Shown here piece after piece: positions 8,467-49,179 of a DNA stretch of 64,000 nt. Source of the DNA: a virus. Positions within the stretch are counted from its first letter, which is position 1, and the number at the start of each line of letters is the position of its first letter. The position numbers and the translations under genes are program-made. Below the pieces are notes generated by a model. That model searched no databases. It saw only the letters and a list, made by a program, of their open reading frames with translations, and was not told where the DNA came from. The stretch lies in IMG/VR virus record IMGVR_UViG_3300045988_135886; one strand, given 5' to 3'.

Positions 8467-8628
8467 GTTGATTGTTTTTGTTGGTGAAAAGTTTTCCATC
8501 GAACATAATATAATTAATATGTTTTTATTTAATTACTATATCTCAAGTAGAAAAAATGGTTTTCTTGAAAAAGGACTGAGCGAAGCGAAGAACTTTTGAA
8601 ACCGTTATCTACGTTAAAAAAGAAAGGA

Positions 8629-10275
8629 ATGATTACAATAGCAAAGCAGAAAAAATGTAAAAGATACTTATTCAAGCTCCACAGTGAACGTCTTCGTAGA
8701 TCACGCTGGAAGCTAGAATATCCATTAGAGGAAGCTCTAAACACAGAAAACATTATTTCTCTGTCTGATAGCCAAATTCTCAGATTCATTGATGAACTCA
8801 ACGGAGACACCAGTGAAGCCAGAGAAGAAGAAGCTTCTTATATAAAGAAAGAAATCAAGCGTCTCAAAAAATCTGATTCTTCTAAGAAAGATACTCTCAT
8901 AGCAAATCTCTATAAAAGATTCTATAATCTTCAATTTGTTCCAGATTACATGTGTCTGATCATTGATAAAATGTCTGATTATAACAGAGCCAATAAAGGC
9001 TTTTCTATCAATGGAATTAAATATCACAGACTCCTAGGCACCAACGGGGGCATAAAGAATTCTACTATTGTTTATGTCTCTGAAAGGCTATATCCCCAGC
9101 TCTATGAGCGTCTCTGTTGCGGCAGGAACCTAGAACAAAAATTTGTGCCAGCTAAACTTGAAGCGTACCAGGCACTGATCTGTTCCGGTAGTATTCCAGT
9201 AAGTATGCCAAAAGGGATCATAGTCGTTCCTGACTGCATTACTCATTTCACAGAAGACATTATTCGTGTAGATGACTCTCAGTCTGATGAACCAATAGTA
9301 GAGTTCCTCAAGGATCAAGAAATAGAGCTTACGGAATCAGACGGTTACGGAATCATGCTTCCATCACTCTCTTACCGTTGGGCAAGAGAGCTTGACGAAG
9401 AAGAAGATTTTTTATCTGGCTGTAATCTCAGAGGACTTCCATGGACAAAGGGCATGGTTTTCACAATGGATTACTTAGCTTTTGGGGAATCTATAGCGAA
9501 AAACTTCTATATAAAAGATGCCTGGGGAGATATGAGAGATATCAGAGAGTCTGAACTGATTATTACTACTTCTATGCTTAAATTATGGGATTCCTACTCT
9601 TCTTTCGAAGATTACTGGTCCAATATAGAAAAATATCATTATCAAATATCTATAGCCAAGACTGCTCCTGCAAGACTTGATGAGTACAGAAGCACAAATT
9701 ACCAGTTCCTGCAGAATTACCACCTTACACCGGAAGAAGTAACTGAATTGGTCCGTCCTACAGTAGAAGAAATTCAAGAAATCCTTGGATTAGATTACAG
9801 GAAGTCACTCCTATTTCTGAGAGGAACAAATCTTACAGAAGATTCCTATATTGATGAAGAGCCATATATCAACGCTCTCATGATTGAGCCACAGATGATT
9901 CATGATCCTTACATCAGAGATAGAATCTACAATATGATAAAGAAAAAAATCAGACAGGCCAAGATTGGTGTACTCAAAGTGAGGGGTAACTTTGCCATCA
10001 TTGGAGGGGATCCGTATAGCTTGATGCAGAGTATCTTTGGTTTACCGGTCACAGGATTGCTCCACGCTGGGGAATGCTGGCATAAACATTGGCTTGATCG
10101 AGGAGTCAGCGAGGTCTGCTGCTTCAGAGCACCTATGACAAGCAAATACAATGTGCGTAAGCTTAAGATAGTAGGGACTCCTGATATGACTTATTGGTAT
10201 AGATATATAAACACATGCATGTTGTTAAACTCATGGGATAGTACTAAGGAAGCTCTTAATGGAGCTGATTGTGAT
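8629..10275 (+). CDS. YonO/RdRP-like two-barrel RNA polymerase, exon 1
   Basis: ATG 8629 has RBS aaaggaa (the ORF track starts at TTG 8596). The C-terminal part, VCCFRAPMTSKYNVRKLKIV...CMLLNSWDSTKEALNGADCD, resembles the RdRP/YonO catalytic barrel. It ends inside the DxDGD motif and runs on only 12 more codons before a stop. Confidence 0.7.
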
Positions 10276-11268
10276 AAAACTCTGTCACCTTATACAGCGA
10301 TGTATATGTAAAACTCGGTGAACTTACAAATGTAAGGTGTCCGGAAGTACCGGGCTAACAGTGGAACTCTTATTGGAAAAATAGATTATAAAAAAGAAGG
10401 TGAGAACAATAGAAGAAAGAATTTTAAATGTAAAAGGTATTGATTACATAGTTCGTGAAGATGGAAAAATATTTAGTACTCATAATCGTGGTAGAGCGAA
10501 ATATCATCAGGAAATAAAACAACGTATGAATTCAGATGGGTACATGTGTATTACTGTCGGTAAAACAGGAAACAGAACAGTTGCCAGTGTTCATAGATTA
10601 GTAGCAAAAGCATTTATCCCTAATCCTTTAAATTTACCGGAAGTAAATCATAAAGATTACAATCGCACAAACAACAGTGTAGATAACTTAGAATGGTGTT
10701 CACATAAAGAAAATATTGACTATACTCTCGCTGCTGGCAGACATGCTTCGCAGACGTTAGATTATAGTGGCAAGAAAAATCCCAACTACGGAAACACCAC
10801 ACTCAGTCAGAAGTACAAAGCTGATCCTGCATATTCAAAAGAAAAACAATCTCGTCCCGGAGGACAGAATGGAAGAGCTATTCCAGTATGTTTGTTAGAT
10901 AAAGACAAAAATGTAATAGCAACTTTTCCATACATGCAGTTATGCGCAGAATATGTGTTGAAACAACTGCACTCTTCTTCATCTCCGGCAGGTCTAGCAG
11001 GAAGAATCCCATATTATATAGAAACAGGTAACATATATAAACACACATACTATTTTTCCAAAGACAATACTGTGCTAAGTCTCAATAATGAGAAAAGTTC
11101 AACGACTATCGAAAGCATAGCTTAAGAGAAATACTTAAGTAAAGAAGCAAGTAGAGTACCTTGTGAGTGGAATCCTCGCAGGGGAAGTGCCGAGCATCTG
11201 TATCTTGGTGATAGAGCTACAGATGAAGATATAGTCTAGTCCTTATGGAAACATAAGGTGTTAAGTCG
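10276..11268 (+). mobile_element. group I intron (HNH-encoding) in the RNA polymerase gene
   Basis: U10275 precedes the 5' splice site and G11268 is the last intron nucleotide. Guide ctct-gtcac (10080-series 10280-10288): gtcac pairs with gtgat (10271-10275), and ctct pairs with exon 2 ggag (11269-11272). R box gttcaacgactat at 11097-11109. S box gaagatatagtct at 11225-11237. Confidence 0.8.
10400..11125 (+). CDS. HNH homing endonuclease (NUMOD4-like N-terminus)
   Basis: IDYIVREDGKIFS...VHRLVAKAFIPNP...VNHKDYNRTNNSVDNLEWCSHKENI is a classic HNH signature. GTG start. Confidence 0.85.
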   Translation: MRTIEERILNVKGIDYIVREDGKIFSTHNRGRAKYHQEIKQRMNSDGYMCITVGKTGNRTVASVHRLVAKAFIPNPLNLPEVNHKDYNRTNNSVDNLEWCSHKENIDYTLAAGRHASQTLDYSGKKNPNYGNTTLSQKYKADPAYSKEKQSRPGGQNGRAIPVCLLDKDKNVIATFPYMQLCAEYVLKQLHSSSSPAGLAGRIPYYIETGNIYKHTYYFSKDNTVLSLNNEKSSTTIESIA

Positions 11269-12354
11269 GGAGACTTAATGTTTACTACTAACAATACTAT
11301 CTTATTAAAACATACAGAAAACCTACCGCCAATCTATTGCATCCAACGTAAAGGAAACAAGGTAGTTCCGACTGAGACAGATATGATACAAGCTAATAAA
11401 GGTTCTTTCGGTGATGCGATTGGTCCTATTACTAATGTTATCACTTCACAGATATGCTTACAGGCAAGGTTCCCGAAAGACAGTGAGGAATATAAAGTCT
11501 TAGACTACAGGATATTGTGTGGGCAGCTGTTCCAACAGAACTCTATTGATAAAGCTAAAGGAATCATCGCTAAACCTATGCCAAAACATTGGTATGACAA
11601 TAGCTACAACCGTATAGAAGAAACAGATACACCAGAAGAAATATCTAAGAAGGAATTCAATCAGAGAATTTGTGCAGATAAGAAGCCGTACTTCTTCATC
11701 TACAACTACCCTACTCTTATGAAAGAATACAAAGACTACATCAAAACATCAGATGCCGTGAGCAGGTCCAGATTTAATATTCCGCTGGAAGAGCTGCTGT
11801 CATCACAAGAGTTGACTGAAGAACAGGCAGAGTTTCTTAAATTCTATAAAGAATTCTATCCAGTCAATGCAGAAACCTGTGTAGTCAATGAACTCTGTTG
11901 GGAAATTGAGAAAACACTGGCTGATGTAAAAGAAAGTAAGGTACCGTTTGACAGTTCTATTCTGAAGTCAGATGCCACCTACACAAATAAGGATAAGGCT
12001 TTTATAAAACGTATCTATGATAAATATAACAAAACTTATGCAAACAGAATGAGCCGCCATAGCTCTGTGTATGAAGATACTTCTTTAACTCCTATTGGAA
12101 TGACTTTTGAATCAGAGTGTGCAGAATATGTTCCAGACGCAGAAAAGCTTTGTAACATTCTGGTTGATTTGGGATATAACACAAAAAAGGGTAAAACTTT
12201 CGTCTGGGAGATGTCCGGAGATACTATTATTGATAACCTTCTTTCTCGAACAGATGGTTATGCGCAGTTTCCTGTAAAGGATCCAGACGGTGATATAGAG
12301 TTTTGCGGCGAACACTTCTCAATGAAAAAAGTAAAAATGAAAGGCGAAGAATAA
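11269..12354 (+). CDS. YonO/RdRP-like RNA polymerase, exon 2
   Basis: In-frame codons GGA GAC (G-D) at 11269-11274 complete GADCD|GD. The ORF continues for 362 codons. Confidence 0.7.
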   Translation, partial: GDLMFTTNNTILLKHTENLPPIYCIQRKGNKVVPTETDMIQANKGSFGDAIGPITNVITSQICLQARFPKDSEEYKVLDYRILCGQLFQQNSIDKAKGIIAKPMPKHWYDNSYNRIEETDTPEEISKKEFNQRICADKKPYFFIYNYPTLMKEYKDYIKTSDAVSRSRFNIPLEELLSSQELTEEQAEFLKFYKEFYPVNAETCVVNELCWEIEKTLADVKESKVPFDSSILKSDATYTNKDKAFIKRIYDKYNKTYANRMSRHSSVYEDTSLTPIGMTFESECAEYVPDAEKLCNILVDLGYNTKKGKTFVWEMSGDTIIDNLLSRTDGYAQFPVKDPDGDIEFCGEHFSMKKVKMKGEE

Positions 12355-16158: not shown

Positions 16159-16932
16159 GTGTCCTGTGGTATATATTGCATTGAGAATAAAATAAATCAC
16201 AAAAAGTATGTTGGTCAATCTATTGATATTAAATCACGATGGACTCAGCATAGACATACAAGTTCTTTAGTAAGAGATACATTTCTTTATAGAGCAATGG
16301 ATAAATACGGTGTTGAGAACTTTGATTTTTATATACTTGAAGAATGCCAACCTGACGAGTTAGATATTAAAGAAATTTATTGGATAGCTACATTAGATAC
16401 ATATAATTATGGGTATAATATGACTCTTGGTGGATCAGGCTTGGTAGGTTACAAAGCTTATAATAGAAACTGTATTCCTAAAAATTTTGGAATGCTTTCT
16501 AATGGTGTAGACGAAACTGTACCTATTATAAAGTTAGATACTAACTATGAAGTGTTAGAGTATTATGTAAGCGTACAGGACTGTGCCAGAGCTAATGGCA
16601 TAGCTTCCACAAACATTTCTAAAACTGCATCAGGGAAAAACAATACATGTCATGGATATATTTTTATGTATTTCAATGACATTAAGGATATGACCACTGA
16701 TGAAATTATTTCTTATAGATTACATCAAAGAAAGAATTATAAAGATTCTACCCTAAAATCTATAGATCGAATCTCCTCTTCTGGAGAAATTATCAATAAT
16801 TATGAAAGTATTAGTCAAGCAGCTAAAGAATTAAATTTAGATCCATCTTCTATAAGCAAGGTGTGTAAAGGAAAACTAAAACAAACTCACGGCTATAAAT
16901 TTAGATATGCCGTAGTAAATAATAAAGAATAA
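16159..16932 (+). CDS. free-standing GIY-YIG homing endonuclease
   Basis: CGIYCIENKINHKKYVGQSIDIKSRWTQHRH...YNYGYNMTLGG. Paralog of the capsid-intron ORF 27459-28241. Lies between intact genes, not within a split gene. Confidence 0.8.
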   Translation: MSCGIYCIENKINHKKYVGQSIDIKSRWTQHRHTSSLVRDTFLYRAMDKYGVENFDFYILEECQPDELDIKEIYWIATLDTYNYGYNMTLGGSGLVGYKAYNRNCIPKNFGMLSNGVDETVPIIKLDTNYEVLEYYVSVQDCARANGIASTNISKTASGKNNTCHGYIFMYFNDIKDMTTDEIISYRLHQRKNYKDSTLKSIDRISSSGEIINNYESISQAAKELNLDPSSISKVCKGKLKQTHGYKFRYAVVNNKE

Positions 16933-17804: not shown

Positions 17805-17807
17805 TCC

Positions 17808-39254: not shown

Positions 39255-39425
39255 ATGGATAAAAACATTTTTGATAGATTAGTTCCTAAATATCTTCAAA
39301 AGCTAAGCTCAGACGAAATTACAGATTTACTTATAGAAATCAGTGATATTGGCAGAACAAAATTTATCAGTAATTACCCAAAAGAAATTGCTGATCAACT
39401 CCCAGGATATGACTTATACGAATAA
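39255..39425 (+). CDS. intron-cargo small ORF (56 aa, MDKNIFDRLVPKYLQKL...)
   Basis: RBS gtaggtg. Below the ORF-track cutoff. Followed by the hairpin at 39503. Confidence 0.4.
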   Translation: MDKNIFDRLVPKYLQKLSSDEITDLLIEISDIGRTKFISNYPKEIADQLPGYDLYE

Positions 39426-39502
39426 TCTTTTTCGGTTGTATTCAATGCAGTCGAGATTGTTAACTTTCCTATAGTATTGTGCAGAGTGTTAGTGTACAGA
39501 AA

Positions 39503-39526
39503 GGAGAACTGTGGTGGCAGTTCTCC
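39503..39526. terminator. bidirectional hairpin between the convergent cargo blocks
   Basis: 9-bp stem ggagaactg/cagttctcc. T-rich on both sides in the respective orientations. Confidence 0.55.
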
Positions 39527-39604
39527 TTCTATTAAATAAAAATTTTAAAAAGAGAAATACATATGACGAAGTAATTAAATGATAAAGTAGAACATTATTA
39601 GCGA

Positions 39605-39790
39605 TTAGTCAACTTTTTTATTCTTGTATTGTCTTTTCATCATTCCGGTGATAAATTTGACTTTCTCATCAGATAATTCTGGATGATTGCAAATTTGATC
39701 AACAGTATGATTTTTCGAGTTGTAATATAGACCAGCTAATATTACAACAAGTAAAAGACTACTAAGAGATATTATTATTCCAGTATTCAT
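39605..39790 (-). CDS. intron-cargo single-pass membrane protein (61 aa)
   Basis: ATG 39790 with RBS gggggtg. Transmembrane segment IIISLSSLLLVVILAGLYY. Confidence 0.55.
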   Translation of the reverse strand: MNTGIIISLSSLLLVVILAGLYYNSKNHTVDQICNHPELSDEKVKFITGMMKRQYKNKKVD

Positions 39791-40037
39791 ATTCTTCTTT
39801 TCACCCCCTTCCCTTATAAATTTCTTTATTGGGGAAGTGTATTGCCCAGAACGGGCAGATTCTTCGTCCACATCAACAATACAGAATGTATGCCAACACT
39901 TCTGCATGATCAAAAGAAATGATCAAGTATATTATCGTGCAGCGAGTTATAATGCAGCACCTATAACCATAATATACCTAGTAGTATAATAACAATATTC
40001 GACAACTTTGTATATACAGAACATTAGTTTATTATAA

Positions 40038-40547
40038 TCAAAACTTAGCTCCACACTTACAGCACTGATAAGTCTTACCAAGATCACCTGCTCCAAAAAG
40101 ACCAAACAGACCTATCTTCATTGCTTTTCTTGTTCCAGTGATTTTCTTAAGATTTGTGCTGCCGCAGATTGGACACTTAGGCCCAGTAGAGAATTTCTGA
40201 GCATTCTGTTTGGCATACCACTGGTCTGTGTTTTTGTTTCGTTGCTCTACTCCTTCAGGAGATTCCCAGTATTTTCTTTCTGCAGTGGCTGCTTTGGTAA
40301 CATCAGAGTCTAGCTTGCCATAGAAATATTTCTCTCGGAGCATTTCATCAGATTCTTCTATGCTAGGATAATCACCATTATGTGTTTTTTTATACTCTTC
40401 TGTTACTTCTGCATAAGCTTTAGAAAAGTTTATTGTTGTACCTATAAGATTACCCTTTAAACAACTTGAACATAAATCACCTATAGTATTTGAACAACTC
40501 ACTGCTCCACATTTATTACAAAATAAAAGTTCACTCATAATTTTCAC
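40038..40547 (-). CDS. intron-cargo double zinc-ribbon protein (169 aa)
   Basis: RBS aaaggtg. CNKCG...CSSC at the N-terminus and CPICG...CCKCG at the C-terminus, with a G-rich hydrophobic patch IGLFGLFGAG. Confidence 0.6.
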   Translation of the reverse strand: MKIMSELLFCNKCGAVSCSNTIGDLCSSCLKGNLIGTTINFSKAYAEVTEEYKKTHNGDYPSIEESDEMLREKYFYGKLDSDVTKAATAERKYWESPEGVEQRNKNTDQWYAKQNAQKFSTGPKCPICGSTNLKKITGTRKAMKIGLFGLFGAGDLGKTYQCCKCGAKF

Positions 40548-40575
40548 CTTTTATATAGTTTTTAAGATGAACTAT

Positions 40576-40604
40576 ATTATATCACAGTATCTGGTTTTTG
40601 AAAA
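40576..40604 (-). promoter_or_regulatory. leftward promoter for the antisense cargo block, straddling the predicted 3' splice site
   Basis: The reverse complement gives ttttca (40604-40599), 17 nt, then tgatataat (-10 at 40581-40576). About 30 nt upstream of ATG 40547. Confidence 0.5.
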
Positions 40605-43600
40605 GAACGATCAAGGTGGAATTTTACCAGAAACACGTTGGAGTAGAAGAACAAGATTGTACAACGAAGGTCGTGCGGAGGCTTTATCAAATTGGAAAGA
40701 ATATGATAATGACACAAGAGCATTGACCCAGCTTAATAATGCACTTCAGAATAATGGTCAAACTATTACCGATAACGCAGAAAGACAGAAAATTGCTGAT
40801 AAAACTCTAAAAAATGCCAGTGAAAGAGCGAAAGAATATGGTAACCAAATTGTAGCGAATACGAAAACTCTTAGTGACTTTAAGAAAGAGAATGAAGTAG
40901 AGGACCCCAATAAGCAAGTAAAACCTAAATTTACTGATGGATTAAAAAGTTTTGCTTCTTCTGCACTTTCATCAATTGGTAATGCTGTTGTTTCTGCCGG
41001 TACAGCAATGATTGCACAGCAATTAATCTCATGGGGACTTCAAGGTATTGATGCTATTGTTCATTGGAATGATAACATTATTGCTAAAGGAAAAGAAGCA
41101 AAAGAAACAATCCTTGAGCAAAATCAAACTTATAAAGATCAGAAGTCTCAATTAGAAGAGCTCCAAGAACAATATACAAAATACGCTTCAGGTGTCAAAA
41201 TCTCTGGTAATATTATTAAAAATGCCACTCTTTCGGATGAAGATTTTCAAGCGTTTCTCGATACAAGTAATCAAATTGCTAACTTAGCACCTTCTATGAT
41301 TGATGGTTGGGACTCTGAAGGCAATGCTATTCTTAAATTTGGAACGGATACCAAAGAAGCTAATCAGCAAATTTCAGATTATATTCAACTCCAACGTGAC
41401 GTAACACATCTATCCATTAGAGATAATCTACAGGATGAGTATAAGGGTGTAGTTAAAGATGCAGAGAAAACTGGAAAAGAAATTTCTAATAAAAAAGATC
41501 AAAAAAAGGAAGCAGATACTATTACATCTGGATGGACCGCATTAAAAAATGCAACCGAAACAGATGGACCTATTACTTTTACTACAACTGCACCACAAAA
41601 AGAAGTTGAAGAATTACTAGATAAATATAAAGTTACATCGTTAATAACTAGCGATGTAAATGGTGATACTTATACAGTAGATATGTCAGAGCTTTCTGCG
41701 GCAGATAAAAATGCTCTTAAAACGTCTCTTGAATCTAAAGAAGCATTAGCTCAAGGTAATGCCAATTTAATTGAATCTGAAAAACTTGCTCAAGAAGCTG
41801 TACAAGCATCTAAATGGAAAGATTTACTTCCAAGTTTACAAGCATATGTTGAATCATCAAATATGTTTGATAACATGGATTCAGATGTTGCAGAAAGAGC
41901 TAAAAATGGCATTAACACAATGCTATCCAATATTGATATTTCTAAAATGACAGATCAAATAAAAGATGCTGGTGGTATTGATGATTGGATTGATAAGACT
42001 TTAATCGCTCCTATGACATCGGGTTCGAAAGATGTTCAAAAAGCTTGGGCTGACCTTTTTTCATTGGAAGACTCTTATGGTTCCGAAGATTCAAAGATGA
42101 CAGTTGGAGAATGGTCCAAACAGCGAAATGATTATCTTAAAACAATTTCTGAAGGTACTGGTGAAAGTTTTGATAGTCTTGCTAAAAAATTAGGATATAA
42201 AACTGATGAAGGTTGGACTGTTAGAGAACAGATTAACAATGCAGCTGCTCGTCTTTATGGAAAAAACTATGATAGAGATCAAAGAGCGGAAATAGGTAGT
42301 TATTTAAATGGATTGACCAAAGATAATTATGAAATAGCTATTGATTTACTTATTAATGGTGATAAAGCATTTTCTTCTTTAGATGAATTTAAAGAAAAAG
42401 TTAATGAAGCAATAAGCAATGCTAAGAATCAGGCAGATGAAGCTGCTGTTTCTTTAGATTCAATGGAAACGAAAGTATCAACTGCTAAGTCTACTCTTTC
42501 TTCTATGGGAACTATTCTTACAGAGACTACTTCTGCAGGTGGAATTTCTAAAGACAATGTTAAGATCCTTTCTACTGCTTTCAAAGATGTGAAAGATCCT
42601 CGTGGCATTGAGCAAAATGTTAATGATTTATTCACCACTACTTCTGATGGTATCAAACTAAACATAGATGCTTTGAAAACCTTTACGGAATATCAGGCTG
42701 AAGCCACTGATGGAGATTTCGAAAAGGGTATTAAGTTACAGACTAAAGCTATTGCCGAGCAAGCAGAAGAAACAGATAAAGCTTGGAAAGCTATTGCTAA
42801 AGCCGATGACAAGGAAGCAGCTAGAGCAACTTATGACGCAGAAAAAGATAAATTAAAAGATGCTAGAGACGAATATTTATCCTATATGCAATCTCAGTCT
42901 GAATGGCAAGCGACTAAGAAACAGCAACAGGAACTTCTCTCCTATTATTCTCAGTGGCAACGTGCTCAGAGTACGGAGAATGCCGGAGATAAATATAATA
43001 ACATTGTCGCAGGACTAAAGAATGCTAAAGATGCATATGATAAAGGTCTTGTAGGTACAGATGATTTTAAATCATTTGCTGCTCTTATTTCTCCTACAGG
43101 TTCAGATGATAGAGCAAACTTTGCAGAGAATTATGGTAAAGCTGTAAGATACCTCACAGAAGATAAGACAGGTGTTAATAATTTCTTAGCTGATCTTAAA
43201 TCTAAGGGTATGGCATCTTATGATGATGCAAGTAAAAGATGGTCATTTGACATAGATGATATGAGTAAAGCCGCTCGATCAATGGGAATCAGCAAAGAAT
43301 TCATGAGTGCTAACTTCGGTCGTCTTCGTGATTATGGCATTGATAATAACTTTATATCATCTATAGAGGAAGGTATAGACAGAACTCAAGAACTTACTTC
43401 TGCCCTTTCAGATGAACAGAAACGACTCGAAGAACTGAAAAATACAGATAGTACTAACACTACTGCTATTTCTGCTTCTGAGGATAAAGTTAATAAATAT
43501 AAACAGGATTTAAAAGAAACCTATGATAACATGGAGTCTTATTCAGAAGATGCTGCTCAAAATGCTGTTGATAATTTCAATTCATCTGCCATGGGAGCGC

Positions 43601-46600
43601 AAGCCTACGAAGAAGAGATAAAAAGAGTTCAAAAAAATGATCAATTGACAAATGATCAGCGAAATGCAGCTATTAATCAATTAAAAGCTAAACAAGAAGA
43701 GCTAGCTGCTTCTGCCGGTACAACTGTTGAAGCTCTTTTAGGAACAGATGTATCTTCATTAATGGATGGTATCATAACAGATTCTGCTTCTGTTACTACA
43801 GCTCTTGATGGTATCAATAAAGCATATGAAGAACAGAACACAGATGTTACTTCTTTAGTAGACACTCTTGGAAAATATACTTCTGAACAGTTAGAAGGTA
43901 TAGATTTCAATGATGGTAAATGGGACACTGAATTAGGTGATGCAGAAAAAGCTGTTGAATCTTTATGCGAAAAACTCGGTTTAACTAAAGACCAAGCTCG
44001 TTCTGTTATTGAGGCTTTAAAAGAAGCTGGTAAATTAAAAGATTCTGAGAAAAGTAGTGATTCCTCTAAAGAAACTACTAAGGGGTCTTGGGAGAAACCA
44101 CAGACTGCTGAACAGATGGGATTCGGTGATGATCCTGATAGGGCTGCTGAATATACACATTCATTGGAAGCTCTTACTGCTGCCCATAAAGAAAACGATG
44201 CCGCTACTGAAAAGTCATTTGAAACCCTTTCTAAATATAACCGTACACAATTAGAGGGCATCAAATTAAATGATGGTGCTTATAATGTTGAGGGTATGGA
44301 ACAGGCTGAAGATGCCATACAACAGTTAGCAGATAAGACTCAGTTGTCTAAAGATCAGATCCTTACTGCTCTTGAAGGTCTTGGTGTTTTGAAAGTTAAT
44401 GCTCCTACTATGGATGCGACAAAAGGTTTGGAAGATTTAGTTTCTGAGGCTAAAGATGCACAGGACGAATTGTCTGACCTTACTGGTAAAACATACACAT
44501 TTGATTTTGATACTACTGATTTAGATACTGCTCATAAACAGGTAGCTGACCTGCAGGAAGAAGTAAATAAATATAGAGATCGTGATGGTAAATACCATCC
44601 AGAGATTACTGGCGGAGAACAGGTGCAATCAATGTACAAAGCCGCTATTGCTCAAGAACAGAATGCTGAATATAGTTCTTCTGCTATTGGACAGTCTAGC
44701 TTATCATCAGATGTCGTACAAGCTGCTCAAGATTTCATGCAAGCCAAGAATGAAATGGATCAACAAACACAACTCTATCAGAATGGTATGGACAACACCC
44801 TTGATCAGGCTACTCAAGATGCCAATGCAGCTTTTGAAACCTTACAACAGGCTCAGACTGATTCAGGTATCAAATTAGTAGATACAGACAATATTCAAAC
44901 TGCCGAAGATCAGTTATTACAATTATCCAATGAAGATATTGGTGATAAAATCAAAATAGATGTTGATACAACTTCTGTTGATGACGCTCTTGCCGATGTA
45001 CAAGCACTTGCAGCAGACGGAAAAATGGGAAGTATTGACTTAGATTTTAATGTTAATACGATGTCTATTGATGATATAGATTCTAAGATAGAAGAATTGA
45101 CAAATCAACAGAAAGTATTAACTATTCTAGGAGATGTTGAGGGAGCAGATAAAGTACAAGCTCTTATTGATGCCTTGCAGCAAGTACATGACAAACAAGT
45201 TGAAGTTGTTGCACAGACCCAAGGTGCAGATTTAGTAGACCAACTTCAGTCACGAATAGCCGAATTGCAAGATAAGAATGTATCTATTGATGCAATTGTT
45301 CAAGATGATAAAGTTCAAAGTCTTATAAGTGAAATTGCTGCTCTCCCACCAGAAGTCCAAATAGCTATTGGTGTAAATGAAAATAATGTAGGAAATGCAG
45401 AAGCTATCAAAGCTCAGATTGAATCCGATCCTGCAAGTATTACTGTAAATTATGTTAAAGGTGAAGAACCTGAAAAAGCGGATGACATTGAAGGAAAAGC
45501 TAATTTTACTCTTGGAGAACATCCTACAAAAGCTCCAGACATTTCAGGTACAGCTAATTATAGTCTTGGTAGTTATCCTAAAACTGCTCCAACTATTTTT
45601 GGTACTGCTGTTTATACTAAAAAGATTCAAGCTTCTGGCACAATGACATCAGTTGCTCACGCTTCTGGAACAGCTTATAACGTTCTTAATATGAGACCTC
45701 TCTCTTCTGCTCATGCAAAAGGTGATGTAGCACTTAAACATGATGAGCAAGCACTTATTAATGAGGTATGCATCAACGGTCATTCTGAATCCATAGTGCG
45801 TGATGGTGTATGGTCGCTTATTCCTGGTGGTGCTCATATTGAGAATTTGAAAAAAGGTGACATCATCTTTTCAGCTACTCAAACAGAGGATTTATTAAAA
45901 CATGGTGCTACACATGGTCATGCTAGAGCATATGCACAAGGCACTGCTTCCAGTGTAACCCTTGCTCCTGCCTATGCAGACGGTACATCAGAATTAGATG
46001 ATACAATTAAAAAAGTAAGTACTCAAGCTAAAGACTGGATAGAAACTGCTCTTGATCGTTTAGAGAGAATCGTTGAAAAGTATCAAGATATCGCTGAAAG
46101 CGATTATAGTAATTATAAGTCTTCTGAGAAGAATTATGATAAAGCACTTAAAAATCTGAATAAACAATTACAGACACAAAAAGATTCCAGAGCAAAATAC
46201 GTAGCTAAAGCAAATGAAGTTGCTTCTGCTGTTGGTTTATCTGACGAACTGAAAAAGAAAGTCCAGAATGGTACAATCAATATTGAAAGTTTATCCGAAG
46301 ATGATAAGAAACGTGTTGACGCATATCAGGAATGGTATGAAAAAATCTTGGATTGTGACAAAGCGATTCGTGAACTCACTAAGTCACAGAAAGATTTAGC
46401 TAAAGCAAAGGTCGAACGTGTTATTGAAGCTTATGACACCGTCATAGGTAAACGTGAGAATAAAGCTGACTATTACAAAGCTAAACAGGAATTGAGAATC
46501 TCACAAGGGTATAATCAGAAACCTGGTTCTAAATATGAAAAATACATGAAAAAGGAACTCTATTATACCAATGAACAGAAACGTCTTACTGATAAAGAAA

Positions 46601-49179
46601 TAAAAGAATATAAAGGTAGGATGAAAGAATATCTTAAGGTAAATGGACATAAAACTGTCGATCCAGAATACCAAAAGATGAAGAAACAGCTTTATAGTCT
46701 CCAGACAGAGGCTGTTAAGTTAGAAAATGAAGCTGCTGAATTAGTTCAGGCTTTACAAGATAATCGTGAACAGATAAAACAATGGGCTGTTGACCGCTGG
46801 GATCGTGCAGGTTCCAAGCAGGATGCAGTAATTGATTACGCAAAAGCAAATGATAATCCTGAGTATCAGATTAACGAAAAGATTTATCAGGAGCGCATTA
46901 AATCTAATGCGAGACAGATCAATGCACTTCAAAAGCTTCGTGCAGAAAAAGCCGAATACTATGATACTCATTTTTCTTCTATGAATAATGAAGAAGCCCA
47001 GAAATATCTTAATTCTATAGCACAGATTGACGAACAAATTTTAAAAATCGGCAGTGATATAGAAAATCTGAAAAATGAAATCATGGAACTTCGCTGGAAA
47101 CCATTTGATGATGCACAAGATAAACTATCAAATGTTATCACTGAATATCAGACTATGCAAAAACTTCTCGGTGACGCTGAAAGTTTTTACAATGATGATG
47201 GTTCATTTACTACAAATGGATTAACTAACATTTTATTAACTCAAGAATCTATAGATGCGACAAAACAGAAGATTGCTAACTATAGGGAAGGTCTTAATAA
47301 GCTTGAAGAACAATATAAAAATGGTTGTTACAGCTTAGACGAATACAATGAGAAAAGCAAACAACTTCTTGATGGTATTCAACAAGAATCTACTGCTCTT
47401 TCTGAACTGAAACAGAATATGCTTGATATGTATGAGACTCAAATTAAGAAAGAGAATGATTTACTTCAGGAAAATATTGATAAGCGTAAAGACGCTCTTT
47501 CTGCTAAAGAGAAATATTACGATTATGACAAAACTTTAAAAAAGAAGTCTAAAGATATTAATACTCTTAAATCCCAGATAGCTGCCCTTGAAGGAACCAG
47601 TAATGCTGCCGCCAAAGCTCGTCTTGAGAAATTACGTGCGGAACTTGCAGATGCCGAAGATGATATGGCAGATACCATGCATCAACACGAAGTCGATATG
47701 AAAAATACCGGCTATGAGAATTTCTCTAATGAAGCGAATAAAGCTCTTGATAATACACTTGATGCAGTAAAGAAAAATTCTTCGTTTCAGGAAGCTATTA
47801 TTAATGGAATGCTTACCAATGTAACCACTAATTATGATAACACATATAAACATTTACATACTGTGATGGATCAGTATGGTGTTAAGGTGTCTGGCACATT
47901 TGATACTATGATAGGTAAGTCTGCTGATTTCAATACAAGTTTAATTCAACAGATAAAAGCATTAGAAACCATTTCTAATATGAAAGTTACTCTTCCATAC
48001 GGAACAAGCAATGGACAAGGTGGTTCTACAACTGGTAATAATACATATACCGGTGCTGAGAATGGTATTCACAATACATTTAATAGCAATAAAGACTCCA
48101 CTGGTGCTGGAAATGAAACTCCAGGTACAGTTAATAACAAGAAATACAGTTTAAAACTAAACGCTACTGATATTTATTTAACTTATGACCATATTAAACA
48201 GCAGCTTAAAGCAACATGGTCACCAAGCAAACCGGAACACTCTGATATTGAGTGGAAAAGTTCTGATGAATCTATTGCAAAAGTTTCTTCTGATGGTACA
48301 GTTCGTGGTGTGTCTTCAGGTCTTAATAAGAACGGTTTAATGGCGCGTGATGAGTCTAAAACAAGAAAATGTATCATTACTGCTATTGGCGGTGGTGGTC
48401 TTGCTAAAGCTACTTGTACCGTTCATGTAATGCCAAATGCTCATTACGAAGCAATTAAATCCTATGCAGCTAATGCAGGGATTGATGTTACTTCTGGAGA
48501 TAACTTAAGAGCCGCCATGCAATATGCATATCAAAATGGGGCTAATCATAGCTACCAGTCTGATGTCGCAGTTGAAGGATTCAAAAAGGCATATCTGAAG
48601 GATTGGACAAGCTCTCTACCTAATCGTCCAGATGGAGCAACTGATATTCCATCTGGTGTTAGTCAGTTAGTAGGTTACTTCAATTCCAAAGGTAAAAAAG
48701 TCGGACCAAAAGAAATGCAACAGCTTGCAGATATTCTTGGAATTAGTACTCCAGGTGTTAAAAAATATGATTCATGGGGTTCTGCTTTAAAAAATCAGAT
48801 ACTTCAAAAGTATAAATCATATGGTTTTGCTACTGGTGGAATAATAAATAAGCTAATACCTGCTGATATGAGTACTCTTTTAGGTAAAGCTATTATTAGT
48901 AATGGAGATCAGGGATTCATTGGTGCAAAAGTTGGCGAATCAGTAATGACCGAGGAATTTACTCGTCTGCTCAAACCTTCTATTGCTGCAATGAATGACT
49001 TTACCAATATGTTTAACCCGGTTACTCCTACTGCCACAAATAATGATTATACTATCAACAACGAAGTGAACATTAATGTAGCAAATATGAGTAATGATTT
49101 AGACATCCAAGATGTCGCAAACAAAGTTTCTACAATTATTAATAAAAATATGACTAGAGACTGGAGAAAGCTTAGATGA
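40594..49179 (+). CDS. tail tape measure protein, exon 2 (2861 aa)
   Basis: Long coiled-coil protein directly before Dit and Tal. The listed ATG 40567 has no SD. Has hydrophobic segments, a C-terminal Big_2-like Ig domain and repeated A[HY]AxGT motifs. Confidence 0.7.
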   Translation, partial: VFEKNDQGGILPETRWSRRTRLYNEGRAEALSNWKEYDNDTRALTQLNNALQNNGQTITDNAERQKIADKTLKNASERAKEYGNQIVANTKTLSDFKKENEVEDPNKQVKPKFTDGLKSFASSALSSIGNAVVSAGTAMIAQQLISWGLQGIDAIVHWNDNIIAKGKEAKETILEQNQTYKDQKSQLEELQEQYTKYASGVKISGNIIKNATLSDEDFQAFLDTSNQIANLAPSMIDGWDSEGNAILKFGTDTKEANQQISDYIQLQRDVTHLSIRDNLQDEYKGVVKDAEKTGKEISNKKDQKKEADTITSGWTALKNATETDGPITFTTTAPQKEVEELLDKYKVTSLITSDVNGDTYTVDMSELSAADKNALKTSLESKEALAQGNANLIESEKLAQEAVQASKWKDLLPSLQAYVESSNMFDNMDSDVAERAKNGINTMLSNIDISKMTDQIKDAGGIDDWIDKTLIAPMTSGSKDVQKAWADLFSLEDSYGSEDSKMTVGEWSKQRNDYLKTISEGTGESFDSLAKKLGYKTDEGWTVREQINNAAARLYGKNYDRDQRAEIGSYLNGLTKDNYEIAIDLLINGDKAFSSLDEFKEKVNEAISNAKNQADEAAVSLDSMETKVSTAKSTLSSMGTILTETTSAGGISKDNVKILSTAFKDVKDPRGIEQNVNDLFTTTSDGIKLNIDALKTFTEYQAEATDGDFEKGIKLQTKAIAEQAEETDKAWKAIAKADDKEAARATYDAEKDKLKDARDEYLSYMQSQSEWQATKKQQQELLSYYSQWQRAQSTENAGDKYNNIVAGLKNAKDAYDKGLVGTDDFKSFAALISPTGSDDRANFAENYGKAVRYLTEDKTGVNNFLADLKSKGMASYDDASKRWSFDIDDMSKAARSMGISKEFMSANFGRLRDYGIDNNFISSIEEGIDRTQELTSALSDEQKRLEELKNTDSTNTTAISASEDKVNKYKQDLKETYDNMESYSEDAAQNAVDNFNSSAMGAQAYEEEIKRVQKNDQLTNDQRNAAINQLKAKQEELAASAGTTVEALLGTDVSSLMDGIITDSASVTTALDGINKAYEEQNTDVTSLVDTLGKYTSEQLEGIDFNDGKWDTELGDAEKAVESLCEKLGLTKDQARSVIEALKEAGKLKDSEKSSDSSKETTKGSWEKPQTAEQMGFGDDPDRAAEYTHSLEALTAAHKENDAATEKSFETLSKYNRTQLEGIKLNDGAYNVEGMEQAEDAIQQLADKTQLSKDQILTALEGLGVLKVNAPTMDATKGLEDLVSEAKDAQDELSDLTGKTYTFDFDTTDLDTAHKQVADLQEEVNKYRDRDGKYHPEITGGEQVQSMYKAAIAQEQNAEYSSSAIGQSSLSSDVVQAAQDFMQAKNEMDQQTQLYQNGMDNTLDQATQDANAAFETLQQAQTDSGIKLVDTDNIQTAEDQLLQLSNEDIGDKIKIDVDTTSVDDALADVQALAADGKMGSIDLDFNVNTMSIDDIDSKIEELTNQQKVLTILGDVEGADKVQALIDALQQVHDKQVEVVAQTQGADLVDQLQSRIAELQDKNVSIDAIVQDDKVQSLISEIAALPPEVQIAIGVNENNVGNAEAIKAQIESDPASITVNYVKGEEPEKADDIEGKANFTLGEHPTKAPDISGTANYSLGSYPKTAPTIFGTAVYTKKIQASGTMTSVAHASGTAYNVLNMRPLSSAHAKGDVALKHDEQALINEVCINGHSESIVRDGVWSLIPGGAHIENLKKGDIIFSATQTEDLLKHGATHGHARAYAQGTASSVTLAPAYADGTSELDDTIKKVSTQAKDWIETALDRLERIVEKYQDIAESDYSNYKSSEKNYDKALKNLNKQLQTQKDSRAKYVAKANEVASAVGLSDELKKKVQNGTINIESLSEDDKKRVDAYQEWYEKILDCDKAIRELTKSQKDLAKAKVERVIEAYDTVIGKRENKADYYKAKQELRISQGYNQKPGSKYEKYMKKELYYTNEQKRLTDKEIKEYKGRMKEYLKVNGHKTVDPEYQKMKKQLYSLQTEAVKLENEAAELVQALQDNREQIKQWAVDRWDRAGSKQDAVIDYAKANDNPEYQINEKIYQERIKSNARQINALQKLRAEKAEYYDTHFSSMNNEEAQKYLNSIAQIDEQILKIGSDIENLKNEIMELRWKPFDDAQDKLSNVITEYQTMQKLLGDAESFYNDDGSFTTNGLTNILLTQESIDATKQKIANYREGLNKLEEQYKNGCYSLDEYNEKSKQLLDGIQQESTALSELKQNMLDMYETQIKKENDLLQENIDKRKDALSAKEKYYDYDKTLKKKSKDINTLKSQIAALEGTSNAAAKARLEKLRAELADAEDDMADTMHQHEVDMKNTGYENFSNEANKALDNTLDAVKKNSSFQEAIINGMLTNVTTNYDNTYKHLHTVMDQYGVKVSGTFDTMIGKSADFNTSLIQQIKALETISNMKVTLPYGTSNGQGGSTTGNNTYTGAENGIHNTFNSNKDSTGAGNETPGTVNNKKYSLKLNATDIYLTYDHIKQQLKATWSPSKPEHSDIEWKSSDESIAKVSSDGTVRGVSSGLNKNGLMARDESKTRKCIITAIGGGGLAKATCTVHVMPNAHYEAIKSYAANAGIDVTSGDNLRAAMQYAYQNGANHSYQSDVAVEGFKKAYLKDWTSSLPNRPDGATDIPSGVSQLVGYFNSKGKKVGPKEMQQLADILGISTPGVKKYDSWGSALKNQILQKYKSYGFATGGIINKLIPADMSTLLGKAIISNGDQGFIGAKVGESVMTEEFTRLLKPSIAAMNDFTNMFNPVTPTATNNDYTINNEVNINVANMSNDLDIQDVANKVSTIINKNMTRDWRKLR

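What the first reader, a model, noticed from the sequence alone, without database searches (positions are those of the whole stretch)
8596..49179. Four introns in four essential genes within about 40 kb
The RNA polymerase, large terminase, major capsid and tape-measure genes are all interrupted, and a fifth, free-standing homing endonuclease is also present. Expression of the late programme, packaging, the capsid and the tail would all depend on self-splicing. This makes splicing a potential global checkpoint, for example one sensitive to GTP level or to the host translation state.
Basis: inference. Interest (0 to 1): 0.7.

Follow-up and report, generated by a model that had tools for sequence, protein, structure and literature searches.

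The report
Four group I introns in phage genes
An uncultured gut (Clostridia-type) phage has self-splicing group I introns in its RNA polymerase, terminase, capsid and tape-measure genes: three are ordinary optional mobile introns, while the tape-measure intron is present in every relative examined and carries a variable island of backward-facing accessory genes.

Summary
All four genes are interrupted, and every insert follows a U and ends in G.

- **RNA polymerase (YonO-type):** 10276-11268, HNH gene. It splits the catalytic NGADCD|GD motif.
- **Large terminase:** 19907-21176, LAGLIDADG gene.
- **Major capsid:** 27025-28264, GIY-YIG gene.
- **Tape measure:** 38070-40593, no recognisable homing endonuclease.

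For the first three, 98-100% identical relatives carry precisely intron-less alleles. These confirm the junctions to the base. Among 20 typed relatives there are 8 occupancy patterns, and two lack all three introns. They are therefore optional selfish elements, not a built-in checkpoint.

The tape-measure insert is the unusual one. Its 5' ~400 nt hold group I core motifs. One guide sequence pairs with the end of exon 1 (P1) and the start of exon 2 (P10), and both pairings co-vary in three diverged intron types. Exon 2 has no ribosome-binding site. Distant tape-measure proteins run uninterrupted across both parts. Between the core and the 3' splice site lie 1.2-5.6 kb of variable cargo, largely antisense, with a predicted antisense promoter straddling the 3' splice site.

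No splicing was measured here, and the GTP or translation checkpoint idea has no support.

The parts
8596..10275 (+). RNA polymerase (YonO-type) exon 1; the likely true start is ATG 8629
   Evidence: phrog_25339 at E=1.7e-192. Homologues of 900-950 aa are continuous across the joint and many carry PF05183. tblastn reaches SPbeta-like phages.
10276..11268 (+). Group I intron in the RNA polymerase gene. P1 pairs GUGAU (10271-10275) with GUCAC (10286-10290). The core 3' half lies at about 11090-11268.
   Evidence: RF00028 scores 49.7 bits, E=1.2e-9. The 993-nt insert is absent from 8 relatives. T at -1 and G at the last intron position. Core motifs at 11097 and 11225.
10400..11125 (+). HNH homing endonuclease gene inside the RNA polymerase intron
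   Evidence: PF13392 at E=7e-8; phrog_59 at E=1.7e-35.
11269..12354 (+). RNA polymerase exon 2, beginning GDLMF
   Evidence: phrog_35857.
16159..16932 (+). Free-standing GIY-YIG/NUMOD homing endonuclease gene (intergenic)
   Evidence: PF01541 and PF22083. Present in nearly all relatives.
19355..19906 (+). Large terminase exon 1 (Walker A region)
   Evidence: The intron-less allele matches phrog_9 across the joint at E=1.3e-8.
19907..21176 (+). Group I intron in the terminase gene. The guide sequence UUGCCUC (20923-20929) pairs with exon end GAGGU plus AA, so the endonuclease gene sits in the P1 loop. The rest of the core is 20930-21176.
   Evidence: Precise intron-less alleles in 25 relatives and a 280-nt ORF-less form in L068. 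The minimum-energy fold gives P1, P2, P3, P4-P6, P8 and P9 in group I order, z=-2.67. P7 G[A]GCAUA/UAUGCC was read by eye. No Rfam match.
19956..20984 (+). LAGLIDADG homing endonuclease gene inside the terminase intron
   Evidence: PF14528 at E=3.5e-15; phrog_4645 at E=3.2e-52.
21177..22631 (+). Large terminase exon 2, beginning KRAEAVCFDE (Walker B)
   Evidence: No ribosome-binding site before the in-frame ATG at 21174.
26564..27024 (+). Major capsid protein exon 1
   Evidence: phrog_4088. HK97 fold of the 99%-identical intron-less protein P0121.
27025..28264 (+). Group I intron in the capsid gene, with the core at 27015-27387. A 17-bp helix closes the loop that holds the endonuclease gene; its arms lie just 5' of the ORF start and across the ORF's stop codon, ending 9 nt before the 3' splice site.
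   Evidence: RF00028 scores 72.3 bits. Intron-less alleles give the exact junction. The helix scores -20.1 kcal/mol against -8.7 for shuffles.
27459..28241 (+). GIY-YIG homing endonuclease gene inside the capsid intron
   Evidence: PF01541 at E=9e-12; phrog_314.
28265..28883 (+). Major capsid protein exon 2
35538..38069 (+). Tape-measure exon 1 (844 codons, ends ...HAMNWG)
   Evidence: PF10145; phrog_4211 at E=1.6e-64; tblastn to annotated tape-measure genes.
38070..38475 (+). Conserved ribozyme part of the tape-measure intron. It includes a hairpin just after the 5' splice site; the guide sequence GAAAAC-GCCCCA (38096-38107); P2 at 38110-38155; a long hairpin with a GNRA loop at 38232-38287; P6 at about 38298-38328; J6/7-P7 GUUCAUCGACUAU at 38326-38338; P8 at 38348-38364; and J8/7-P7' GAAGGAAUAGUC at 38364-38375.
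   Evidence: Conserved in all relatives, with divergence starting at about 38475. Core motifs occur only at the three ribozymes in the window. Weak RF00028 alignment of 15.2 bits, E=0.18. P1 is recovered by free folding in three types.
38476..40593 (.). Cargo part of the tape-measure intron. Plus-strand ORFs are 38526-38990 and 39255-39425. Minus-strand ORFs are 40038-40538 (double zinc-ribbon protein, present in all relatives), 39605-39913 (membrane protein) and 39099-39209. A minus-strand terminator lies at 39085-39120. The last intron base is G at 40593.
   Evidence: Cargo length and content vary among relatives; the intron spans 1174-5613 nt.
40576..40604 (-). Predicted sigma-70-type promoter for the antisense cargo genes (TTTTCA, 17 nt, TG-TATAAT). 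It spans the 3' splice site.
   Evidence: Best promoter-like site in the region, 10 of 12 matches with an extended -10. The motif is conserved at nucleotide level in relatives whatever the reading frame.
40594..49179 (+). Tape-measure exon 2 (2861 codons, begins VFEKNDQGG). GUUUUU at 40594-40599 pairs with GAAAAC of the guide sequence (P10).
   Evidence: It is the only site in the 25.7 kb downstream where a G is followed by six bases pairing with GAAAAC. There is no start codon with a ribosome-binding site in the first 220 codons of the ORF. Continuous homologues cover both exons. The spliced frame is open for 3705 codons.

Best explanation
The window comes from an uncultured phage of gut Clostridia-like hosts that carries four group I introns in essential genes.

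**Three ordinary mobile introns.** The RNA polymerase, terminase and capsid introns each carry a different homing endonuclease gene (HNH, LAGLIDADG, GIY-YIG). They spread by homing into intron-less alleles during mixed infection. They are tolerated because the RNA removes itself: the 5' exon ends in U paired with G in P1, guanosine attacks there, and the exons are joined after the terminal G of the intron.

**A cargo-carrying tape-measure intron.** The fourth intron has the same chemistry but a different lifestyle. Its catalytic core occupies the first ~400 nt. A single guide sequence holds both exon ends: GCCCCA pairs with the last six bases of exon 1, and the adjacent GAAAAC pairs with the first six bases of exon 2. 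Everything between the core and the 3' splice site is a variable cargo region of 1.2-5.6 kb. Genes there, mostly on the opposite strand, have accumulated and are exchanged between phages. Splicing of the late transcript would yield a 3705-residue tape-measure protein. The cargo appears to have its own antisense promoter and terminator.

**Shown versus inferred.** Shown here are the exon junctions, the optional nature of three introns, the P1/P10 co-variation, the core motifs, the absence of translation signals on any exon 2, and continuous tape-measure homologues. Inferred are that splicing actually occurs, that it is efficient, and that the cargo is expressed from the antisense promoter.
For: **Junctions and boundaries**
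- Precise intron-less alleles exist in near-identical relatives for the RNA polymerase, terminase and capsid genes.
- All four inserts have U at -1 and G as the last intron base.

**Ribozyme evidence**
- RF00028 scores 72.3 bits for the capsid intron and 49.7 bits for the RNA polymerase intron.
- The ORF-less 280-nt terminase intron folds in group I helix order.
- The motifs GTTCANCGACTAT and GAAGRWATAGTC occur without mismatch only at the RNA polymerase, capsid and tape-measure ribozymes. For the first motif, 3 were found against 0.17 expected.

**Mobile-element behaviour**
- Three different homing endonuclease families are encoded.
- Occupancy among relatives is combinatorial.
- Synonymous changes cluster at the insertion sites. 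The intron-less terminase allele has A at -1 where intron-bearing alleles have T.

**Tape-measure intron**
- P1 co-varies in four types: UGGGGU/GCCCCA, GAUGGU/GCCAUC, GUCGGU/GCCGAC and AUAGGU/GCUUAU.
- P10 co-varies in three types: GUUUUU/GAAAAC, AUAUUU/AAAUAU and CAGUUU/AAACUG. Each is preceded by G and falls on a codon boundary.
- The window has exactly one such site in 25.7 kb.
- The ORF has no ribosome-binding site, and relatives have no canonical start codon at the homologous position.
- Six distant proteins (P0327, P0364, P0379, P0442, P0429, P0397) align in order with both exon 1 and exon 2 in one chain.

**Precedents**
- A phage capsid intron with a leftward-transcribed endonuclease gene is spliced efficiently (PMC3706429).
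- IStrons combine a 5' ribozyme with up to about 2.6 kb of 3' cargo (PMC4227781).
Against: - No RNA data: splicing of none of the four was observed.
- Rfam's group I model does not reach its threshold for the terminase intron (no match) or the tape-measure intron (15.2 bits, E=0.18).
- I could not assign P3-P5 of the tape-measure ribozyme with confidence.
- No significant helix closing the cargo loop was found for the tape-measure intron, unlike the capsid intron. The candidate GUGAUGUAA/UUAUAUCAC is no better than shuffles.
- No intron-less tape-measure allele exists among close relatives, so its junction rests on P1/P10 and on distant homologues.
- Splicing across up to 5.6 kb that includes convergently transcribed genes is untested anywhere.
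- Weak plus-strand terminator-like hairpins lie inside the cargo.
Confidence: 0.8

Rival explanations
1. One reading: the four introns together act as a regulatory checkpoint. Splicing efficiency, set by GTP level or by translation, would gate the late programme, packaging, and head and tail assembly.
For: All four genes are essential, and unspliced RNA gives truncated products. The RNA polymerase intron splits the catalytic Asp triad, so late transcription would depend on splicing if this enzyme acts like YonO of SPbeta, which transcribes the late structural operon (PMC8270828). From general knowledge, efficient splicing of the T4 td intron needs translation of the upstream exon.
Against: Three of the four introns are missing from near-identical phages in every combination, and two relatives lack all three. 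The phage does not need them. Each carries a homing endonuclease gene and shows homing footprints, which explains their presence without any regulatory role. Nothing in the sequences suggests a sensor. Guanosine binding by group I ribozymes saturates far below cellular GTP levels (general knowledge, not tested here).
Confidence: 0.07
2. The tape-measure gene is truly split. An 852-aa protein and a ~2870-aa protein are made separately and assemble, and the ribozyme-like RNA after the first ORF is a decayed intron remnant or serves another purpose such as transcript processing.
For: No close relative has a continuous gene. The insert holds independently transcribed genes with their own promoter and terminator. 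Rfam does not recognise the RNA at threshold. In the window the ORF happens to begin with ATG.
Against: The ATG at 40567 has no ribosome-binding site, whereas the genes used as reference have one scoring -7 to -16 kcal/mol. Relatives have ATT or ATA at that position, and L084/L091 carry a 1-nt indel just after it, so those 27 nt are not coding. The guide sequence pairs with both exon ends and co-varies in independent types, which a dead remnant would not preserve. The 400-nt RNA is far better conserved than the flanking cargo.
Confidence: 0.1
3. The tape-measure insert is an IStron-type element, a group I ribozyme fused to a transposon. On this view it moves by transposition rather than being an old resident intron that collected cargo.
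For: The layout is the same: ribozyme at the 5' end, cargo at the 3' end, and a distant 3' splice site (PMC4227781). All exon 1 ends read GGU, reminiscent of the GG-ending targets of group B IStrons. One relative (L166) has a TnpB-type gene (PF01385, PF07282) directly after the ribozyme.
Against: The window's insert has no transposase; none of its ORFs matches a Pfam, NCBIfam or PHROG transposase family. The cargo is mostly on the opposite strand, whereas IStron ORFs are on the forward strand (PMC4227781). The element sits at one homologous site of one gene in phages whose exon 1 identity is as low as 38%, which suggests vertical persistence rather than transposition. It ends ...CUG, not CGG or TCAG.
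Confidence: 0.05

Closest known systems
Homing-endonuclease-bearing group I introns of phages (T4 td/nrdB/nrdD, SPO1 DNA polymerase, Staphylococcus phages Twort and K, Cluster J mycobacteriophage capsid and tail introns; PMC3984707, PMC3706429)
   Same: Inserts follow a U and end in G in conserved parts of essential genes. They carry HNH, LAGLIDADG or GIY-YIG genes and are present or absent among close relatives. Several introns per genome is common. The endonuclease ORF can be looped out of the core by a long helix, as in the capsid intron here.
   Different: The particular hosts are new to my knowledge and to the literature searches run here: a YonO-type single-subunit RNA polymerase cut inside its DxDGD motif, and all four of RNA polymerase, terminase, capsid and tape measure interrupted in one 40-kb stretch.
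IStrons: group I ribozyme fused to an IS200/IS605 or IS607 element (CdISt1, BcISt1; PMC4227781)
   Same: For the tape-measure intron: the catalytic core is at the 5' end, kilobases of protein-coding cargo lie before a remote 3' splice site, and the cargo content varies between copies.
   Different: The window's copy has no transposase. The cargo is mostly antisense and has its own promoter and terminator. The element occupies a single conserved site in one gene. No long AU-rich inverted-repeat stem could be shown.
T4 nrdD (sunY) intron, whose core is activated by a remote 3' terminal domain beyond the ORF (recalled from the literature, not checked here)
   Same: The core sits upstream of a long ORF-containing segment, and the 3' splice site lies far from the core.
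   Different: Here the intervening segment is up to 5.6 kb, holds several genes on both strands, and varies between relatives.
Accessory-gene ('moron') and defence hotspots of temperate phages
   Same: This is a fixed genomic position where unrelated small gene cassettes are swapped between otherwise near-identical phages. Examples here are zinc-ribbon proteins, a membrane protein, a PemK/MazF-like toxin, a DUF5067 lipoprotein and a GmrSD-like nuclease. The cassettes have their own promoter and terminator, oriented against the late operon.
   Different: Known hotspots lie between genes. This one lies inside the coding region of the tape-measure gene and is tolerated only because it sits within an intron.

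Membership tests
Group I intron - capsid insert 27025-28264 | Match to the Rfam RF00028 covariance model at its gathering score | tested here: met
   72.3 bits against a cut-off of 50, E=2.1e-16, full model.
Group I intron - capsid insert 27025-28264 | Precise removal restores a continuous, conserved gene; U before the 5' splice site and G as the last intron base | tested here: met
   Intron-less alleles L100-L110 have exactly the predicted junction; U and G confirmed.
Group I intron - RNA polymerase insert 10276-11268 | Match to RF00028 at its gathering score | tested here: inconclusive
   49.7 bits against 50, E=1.2e-9. The 5' half of the alignment falls in the HNH ORF. P1 GUGAU/GUCAC was read directly from the sequence.
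Group I intron - RNA polymerase insert 10276-11268 | Precise removal restores the gene; U at -1 and G as the last intron base | tested here: met
   Eight uninterrupted alleles. The DxDGD motif is rebuilt and continuous in homologues. U and G confirmed.
Group I intron - terminase insert 19907-21176 | Match to RF00028 | tested here: not met
   No match even at E<=10, on the full insert and on the 280-nt ORF-less form.
Group I intron - terminase insert 19907-21176 | [quoted passage not shown] | tested here: inconclusive
   The minimum-energy fold of the ORF-less form gives P1 (GAGGUAA/UUGCCUC), P2, P3 enclosing P4-P6, P8 and two 3' hairpins, z=-2.67. P7 G[A]GCAUA/UAUGCC was found by eye. No co-variation data are available because the copies are nearly identical.
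Group I intron - terminase insert 19907-21176 | Precise removal restores the gene | tested here: met
   Twenty-five relatives have an uninterrupted gene 100% identical across the joint.
Group I intron - tape-measure insert 38070-40593 | Match to RF00028 at its gathering score | tested here: not met
   No match in a 2.8-kb search. In a 426-nt search the score is 15.2 bits, E=0.18, with the 3' core aligned at high posterior probability.
Group I intron - tape-measure insert 38070-40593 | An internal guide sequence pairing with the 5' exon end (P1, U-G at the splice site) and with the 3' exon start (P10), and a terminal G | tested here: met
   P1 has six pairs in four diverged types. P10 has six pairs in three types, each after a G and in frame. 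The window has a unique site in 25.7 kb.
Group I intron - tape-measure insert 38070-40593 | Catalytic core: P7 with its flanking J6/7 and J8/7 segments, plus P3 and P8 | tested here: inconclusive
   GUUCAUCGACUAU, P8 (UUGGUC/GAUCAA) and GAAGGAAUAGUC match the two Rfam-supported introns of the same window. P3-P5 could not be assigned with confidence, and the 3' halves of the L097 and L166 types differ.
Group I intron - tape-measure insert 38070-40593 | Removal restores a continuous gene | tested here: met
   The spliced frame is open for 3705 codons. Six distant homologues contain both parts in order in a single chain. No intron-less close relative was found.
Self-splicing (all four inserts) | Excision and exon ligation observed in RNA | not testable with these tools
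   No transcript data are available. RT-PCR or an in vitro splicing assay is needed.
IStron | An IS200/IS605 or IS607 transposase or TnpB ORF on the forward strand downstream of the ribozyme | tested here: not met
   No transposase family matches any ORF of the window's tape-measure intron. A TnpB-type ORF occurs only in relative L166.
YonO-type single-subunit two-barrel RNA polymerase | Homology to YonO/QDE-1-type polymerases and an invariant DxDGD metal-binding motif | tested here: met
   Many full-length homologues carry PF05183. tblastn hits SPbeta-like phages at E=1e-17 to 1e-22 and phage genes annotated as RNA-dependent RNA polymerase. NGADxDGD is conserved. No solved structure was found by sequence.
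HK97-fold major capsid protein | HK97 fold, and a position after the portal and scaffold genes | tested here: met
   The AlphaFold model of P0121 has pLDDT 71.5. The 50 listed Foldseek hits include 47 phage or satellite capsid proteins, 2 encapsulins and 1 engineered protein nanocage (E from 4e-7, TM 0.3-0.4). Synteny.
Tape-measure protein | PF10145 domain, a position between the tail chaperones and the distal tail protein, and great length | tested here: met
   PF10145 at E=2e-18; phrog_4211; annotated tape-measure hits. The next genes downstream are a DUF6558 tail protein and a 2117-aa fibre protein.

The most novel reading that the evidence does not exclude
The tape-measure intron acts as a safe harbour for accessory and defence genes. 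Anything inserted between the ribozyme core and the 3' splice site is spliced out of the late mRNA. The middle of an essential structural gene has therefore become an exchange hotspot for cassettes that are transcribed backwards from a promoter straddling the 3' splice site. Plausibly this expression occurs when the late operon is silent, such as during lysogeny or early infection. Antisense transcription across the splice site might in turn dampen tape-measure expression.
Probability: 0.45. Interest if true: 0.72.

Novelty: new variant of a known kind. Interest (0 to 1): 0.58.

Why it matters
Multiple mobile introns in phage structural genes are known, so the headline of four introns is not surprising in itself. 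Three things add value.

- **Annotation.** Gene callers split these genes. The protein databases hold hundreds of half-length capsid, polymerase and tape-measure fragments. Rfam's single group I model recognises only one of the four introns at threshold, with a second just below it.
- **A testable dependence.** A YonO-type phage RNA polymerase cut inside its catalytic motif makes late transcription depend on RNA splicing, and this can be tested directly.
- **A new arrangement.** The tape-measure intron, present in every relative, shows that an intron can host a kilobase-scale, antisense-transcribed, rapidly exchanged gene island inside an essential gene. If confirmed, this links self-splicing RNA to the biology of phage accessory and defence hotspots, and it shows how far a group I 3' splice site can lie from its core (up to 5.6 kb).

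Tried and rejected
- **Inteins.** Rejected: every insert has in-frame stops, and the endonuclease ORFs have their own ribosome-binding sites.
- **Group II introns.** Rejected: no GUGYG start and no reverse transcriptase. The AGC...GUU hairpin at 38298-38328 looks like domain V, but its AGC is not conserved in the L097 and L166 types.
- **Split genes translated as two polypeptides.** Rejected: none of the four exon 2 segments has a ribosome-binding site.
- **First guess for the tape-measure 3' splice site (after UUAAG, exon 2 starting at ATG 40567).** Abandoned: L084/L091 would be out of frame, and the P10 pairing points to 40593|40594 in all types.
- **A helix closing the tape-measure cargo loop, as in the capsid intron.** The best candidates are no better than shuffled controls.
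- **Full hand-assignment of P3-P6 of the tape-measure ribozyme, and RNAalifold on three diverged types.** Only P1, P2, the GNRA-capped hairpin and the P6 hairpin are consistently supported.
- **Near-identical cultured phage.** None found in INPHARED. The nearest cultured phages share only about 26-38% protein identity, and Enterocloster phage PMBT24 has a continuous 1508-aa tape-measure gene.
- **Sequence searches of PDB** with the polymerase, capsid profile and terminase found nothing useful.
- **Function of the cargo ORFs in the window.** No family matched.
- **Lifestyle markers (integrase or repressor) in the window.** None found.

Full report
**What the window is.** The 64-kb window is a phage with no close relative among 50,697 deposited phage genomes. 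IMG/VR holds dozens of contigs that are 96-100% identical over long stretches. The only named relative of a capsid homologue is a Clostridium sp. genome. The nearest cultured phages infect Enterocloster, Clostridium botulinum and Bacillus, at 26-38% protein identity. The finding spans a replication and late-transcription module and the head and tail module.

**Gene identities.**
- *RNA polymerase.* The two halves match PHROG families of unknown function. The joined protein has thousands of 900-950 aa homologues, many carrying Pfam PF05183. It reaches SPbeta-like phages at E=1e-17 to 1e-22 and phage genes annotated as RNA-dependent RNA polymerase. It is therefore a YonO-type single-subunit polymerase. 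In SPbeta, that enzyme transcribes the late structural operon (PMC8270828).
- *Terminase.* The intron-less form matches phrog_9, large terminase, at E=1.3e-8 across the insertion point. It has Walker A and B motifs and sits just before the portal gene.
- *Capsid.* The AlphaFold model of the 99%-identical intron-less protein has pLDDT 71.5. Foldseek returns almost only HK97-fold capsid proteins, plus two encapsulins and one engineered nanocage.
- *Tape measure.* It carries PF10145, matches phrog_4211 and hits annotated tape-measure genes. It lies between the tail chaperone-like genes and a DUF6558 tail protein.

**The three ordinary introns.** I predicted the junctions from reading frames and the group I rule (U before the 5' splice site, G as the last intron base), then tested them against relatives.
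- *RNA polymerase.* Removing 10276-11268 gives NGADCD|GDLMF. Eight relatives have exactly this uninterrupted sequence, and about 20 have the 993-nt insert. Homologues down to 48% identity are continuous through the invariant DxDGD motif.
- *Terminase.* Removing 19907-21176 gives ...AKRG|KRAEAVCFDE. Twenty-five relatives have an uninterrupted gene 100% identical over the 371 residues tested. One relative has a 280-nt version that keeps the last 259 nt and has lost the endonuclease gene.
- *Capsid.* Removing 27025-28264 gives ...SWYGI|KIYAEYELF. Twelve relatives show that exact DNA junction.

Rfam's group I model scores the capsid intron at 72.3 bits and the RNA polymerase intron at 49.7 bits, against a threshold of 50. 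It gives nothing for the terminase intron. The ORF-less terminase form nevertheless folds with the group I helix order. P1 contains the U-G pair, and a P7 with a bulged A can be drawn. In the window copy, the LAGLIDADG gene sits in the P1 loop.

The three introns carry HNH, LAGLIDADG and GIY-YIG genes. In the capsid intron, a 17-bp helix loops out the GIY-YIG gene and brings the 3' splice site to within 9 nt of the structured part.

**Why they are selfish elements, not a circuit.** This gave eight occupancy patterns among 20 contigs, including two with no intron at any of the three sites. Intron-less and intron-bearing alleles differ by clusters of synonymous changes next to the insertion sites. 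The intron-less terminase allele has A where the intron-bearing allele has the U needed for P1.

Other relatives carry introns at further sites:
- a second capsid site near codon 135, and an ORF-less capsid intron scoring 79 bits;
- a second terminase intron scoring 85.6 bits;
- extra tape-measure introns.

This is the usual picture of homing introns sweeping through a phage population.

**The tape-measure insert.** The first ORF (35538-38096) stops eight codons after ...HAMNWG. The giant ORF begins only at 40567. In between lie plus- and minus-strand ORFs, so this is not a standard intron.

Every relative has the same break at the same place, down to 38% exon 1 identity. The distance to the giant ORF varies. 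The first ~400 nt after the break are highly conserved, and similarity collapses at about 38475.

That RNA contains GUUCAUCGACUAU and GAAGGAAUAGUC. These are the J6/7-P7 and J8/7-P7' segments of the two Rfam-supported introns. In the whole window these motifs occur without mismatch only at the three ribozymes; for the first, 3 were found against 0.17 expected. In a 426-nt search Rfam aligns the region weakly, at 15.2 bits and E=0.18.

The last six bases of exon 1 pair with a guide sequence about 30 nt downstream, with U-G at the junction. This pairing co-varies in four diverged intron types: UGGGGU/GCCCCA, GAUGGU/GCCAUC, GUCGGU/GCCGAC and AUAGGU/GCUUAU.

**Finding the 3' splice site.** My first guess was a splice after UUAAG, with exon 2 starting at ATG 40567. 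It failed because two relatives would be out of frame.

The six bases immediately 5' of the P1 strand of the guide sequence (GAAAAC) should pair with the start of exon 2 (P10). In the 25.7 kb downstream there is exactly one place where a G is followed by six bases that pair with GAAAAC. That place is 40594, on a codon boundary of the giant ORF. The same holds in all variants with this ribozyme, including the two that had seemed frameshifted.

In the two other types for which exon 2 is available, the guide differs and exon 2 differs with it. AAAUAU pairs with G|AUAUUU in L097, and AAACUG pairs with G|CAGUUU in L098. Both are in frame. From the observed hit densities, the chance of three such coincidences at the right codon is roughly 1e-7.

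The intron is therefore 38070-40593. The junction reads ...HAMNWG|VFEKNDQGG, and the product has 3705 residues.

**Independent support that it is one gene.**
- The giant ORF has no start codon with a ribosome-binding site in its first 220 codons. The reference genes score -7 to -16 kcal/mol against the anti-Shine-Dalgarno sequence.
- Relatives have ATT or ATA where the window has ATG.
- In a search of 1.8 billion representative proteins, six distant homologues align with the end of exon 1 and then the start of exon 2 in a single chain. One example is P0327, where exon 1 residues 445-840 match 2085-2488 and exon 2 residues 111-571 match 2580-3050.
- The junction region aligns at residue level: WGVFEKND against KGIFNYDK.

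**The cargo.** In the window, the intron holds the following:
- a plus-strand 154-aa ORF and a 56-aa ORF;
- a minus-strand unit with a double zinc-ribbon protein (present next to exon 2 in every relative), a small membrane protein and a 36-aa Cys-rich ORF;
- a strong minus-strand terminator closing that unit.

The best promoter-like site of the region (TTTTCA, 17 nt, TG-TATAAT) lies on the minus strand at 40604-40576, across the 3' splice site. Its -10 box explains why the last 27 intron bases are conserved at nucleotide level whatever the reading frame.

Intron length in relatives ranges from 1174 to 5613 nt. Their cargo includes a PemK/MazF-like toxin, a DUF5067 lipoprotein, further zinc-ribbon proteins, a TnpB-type gene and a GmrSD-like nuclease.

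The layout resembles IStrons, which have a 5' ribozyme and a 3' cargo (PMC4227781). There is no transposase in the window, however, and the cargo is mostly antisense. An antisense endonuclease gene inside an efficiently spliced phage capsid intron is documented (PMC3706429).

**What remains open.** No RNA evidence exists for any of the four. P3-P5 of the tape-measure ribozyme are not assigned. No significant helix closing its cargo loop was found. How a 3' splice site 2-5 kb away is presented to the core is unknown. The checkpoint hypothesis cannot be excluded by sequence alone, but it is not needed and the population data argue against it.

**Verdict.** Three introns are new members of a well-known kind. 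The tape-measure intron is a new variant: a resident group I intron serving as a container for an antisense accessory-gene island.

Noticed in passing
window 40576-40604 (minus strand): The predicted promoter of the antisense cargo genes straddles the tape-measure 3' splice site, with the -10 box in the intron and the -35 box in exon 2. Its -10 motif is conserved in relatives even where the reading frame differs.
   Followed up: partly
window 27388-27460 and 28225-28264 (regions folded): A 17-bp perfect helix flanks the GIY-YIG ORF of the capsid intron, which would bring the 3' splice site close to the ribozyme core. It resembles the IR stem of IStrons.
   Followed up: partly
L126-L133 and L138 (capsid gene, about codon 135); L150 3468-3806: Relatives carry capsid introns at a second site, about 17 codons upstream of the window's site. 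A more distant relative has an ORF-less 415-nt capsid intron scoring 79 bits on RF00028.
   Followed up: partly
L068 2177-2512: The contig with the 280-nt ORF-less terminase intron has a second group I intron (85.6 bits) further down, apparently in the 3' part of the same terminase gene.
   Followed up: no
L090 5145-5502; L099 about 6337-6810; L097 4713-5997: Relatives have additional introns, or endonuclease-like ORFs, splitting tape-measure exon 1 further. L090 scores 61.9 bits on RF00028 and L099 scores 23.5 bits.
   Followed up: partly
L099 7562-11622; L166 6084-8695: Cargo of the tape-measure intron in relatives includes a PemK/MazF-like toxin, a DUF5067 lipoprotein, several zinc-ribbon proteins, a TnpB-type (IS605 OrfB) gene and a GmrSD_N nuclease-like gene. 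This looks like a defence or accessory gene island.
   Followed up: partly
L084 and L091, last 27 nt of the tape-measure intron: A 1-nt deletion relative to other variants shows that the stretch between UUAAG and the true 3' splice site is non-coding. This was the clue that the giant ORF's ATG is not part of the exon.
   Followed up: yes
window 17263-17889: Three tRNA genes (Glu-UUC, Ser-UGA, Tyr-GUA) sit between the early/middle module and the packaging genes.
   Followed up: no
window 13980-14978, 15006-15623, 15620-15964 and 16950-17222: A PhoH-like ATPase, a ClpP-family protease and what look by eye like two HU/IHF-like DNA-binding genes (the latter not scanned against any family library) flank the free-standing GIY-YIG gene.
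   Followed up: no
Enterocloster phages CB457P1/P2 and CB473P1-P3 (hits H6-H9, H11) and Clostridium phage c-st (H4): In these cultured phages the YonO-type polymerase matches in 2-3 pieces spread over 3.0-3.6 kb and several annotated hypothetical proteins. They probably also carry an intron in this gene and could serve as an experimental system.
   Followed up: no
window 50183-56536: A 2117-aa tail fibre or tip protein has a C-terminal Peptidase_S74 (intramolecular chaperone) domain, directly after the distal tail protein gene.
   Followed up: no
protein database clusters: Public protein collections hold many half-length capsid (193 and 163 aa), polymerase (about 560 aa) and tape-measure fragments from this phage group. 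These are gene-calling artefacts caused by unrecognised introns.
   Followed up: partly
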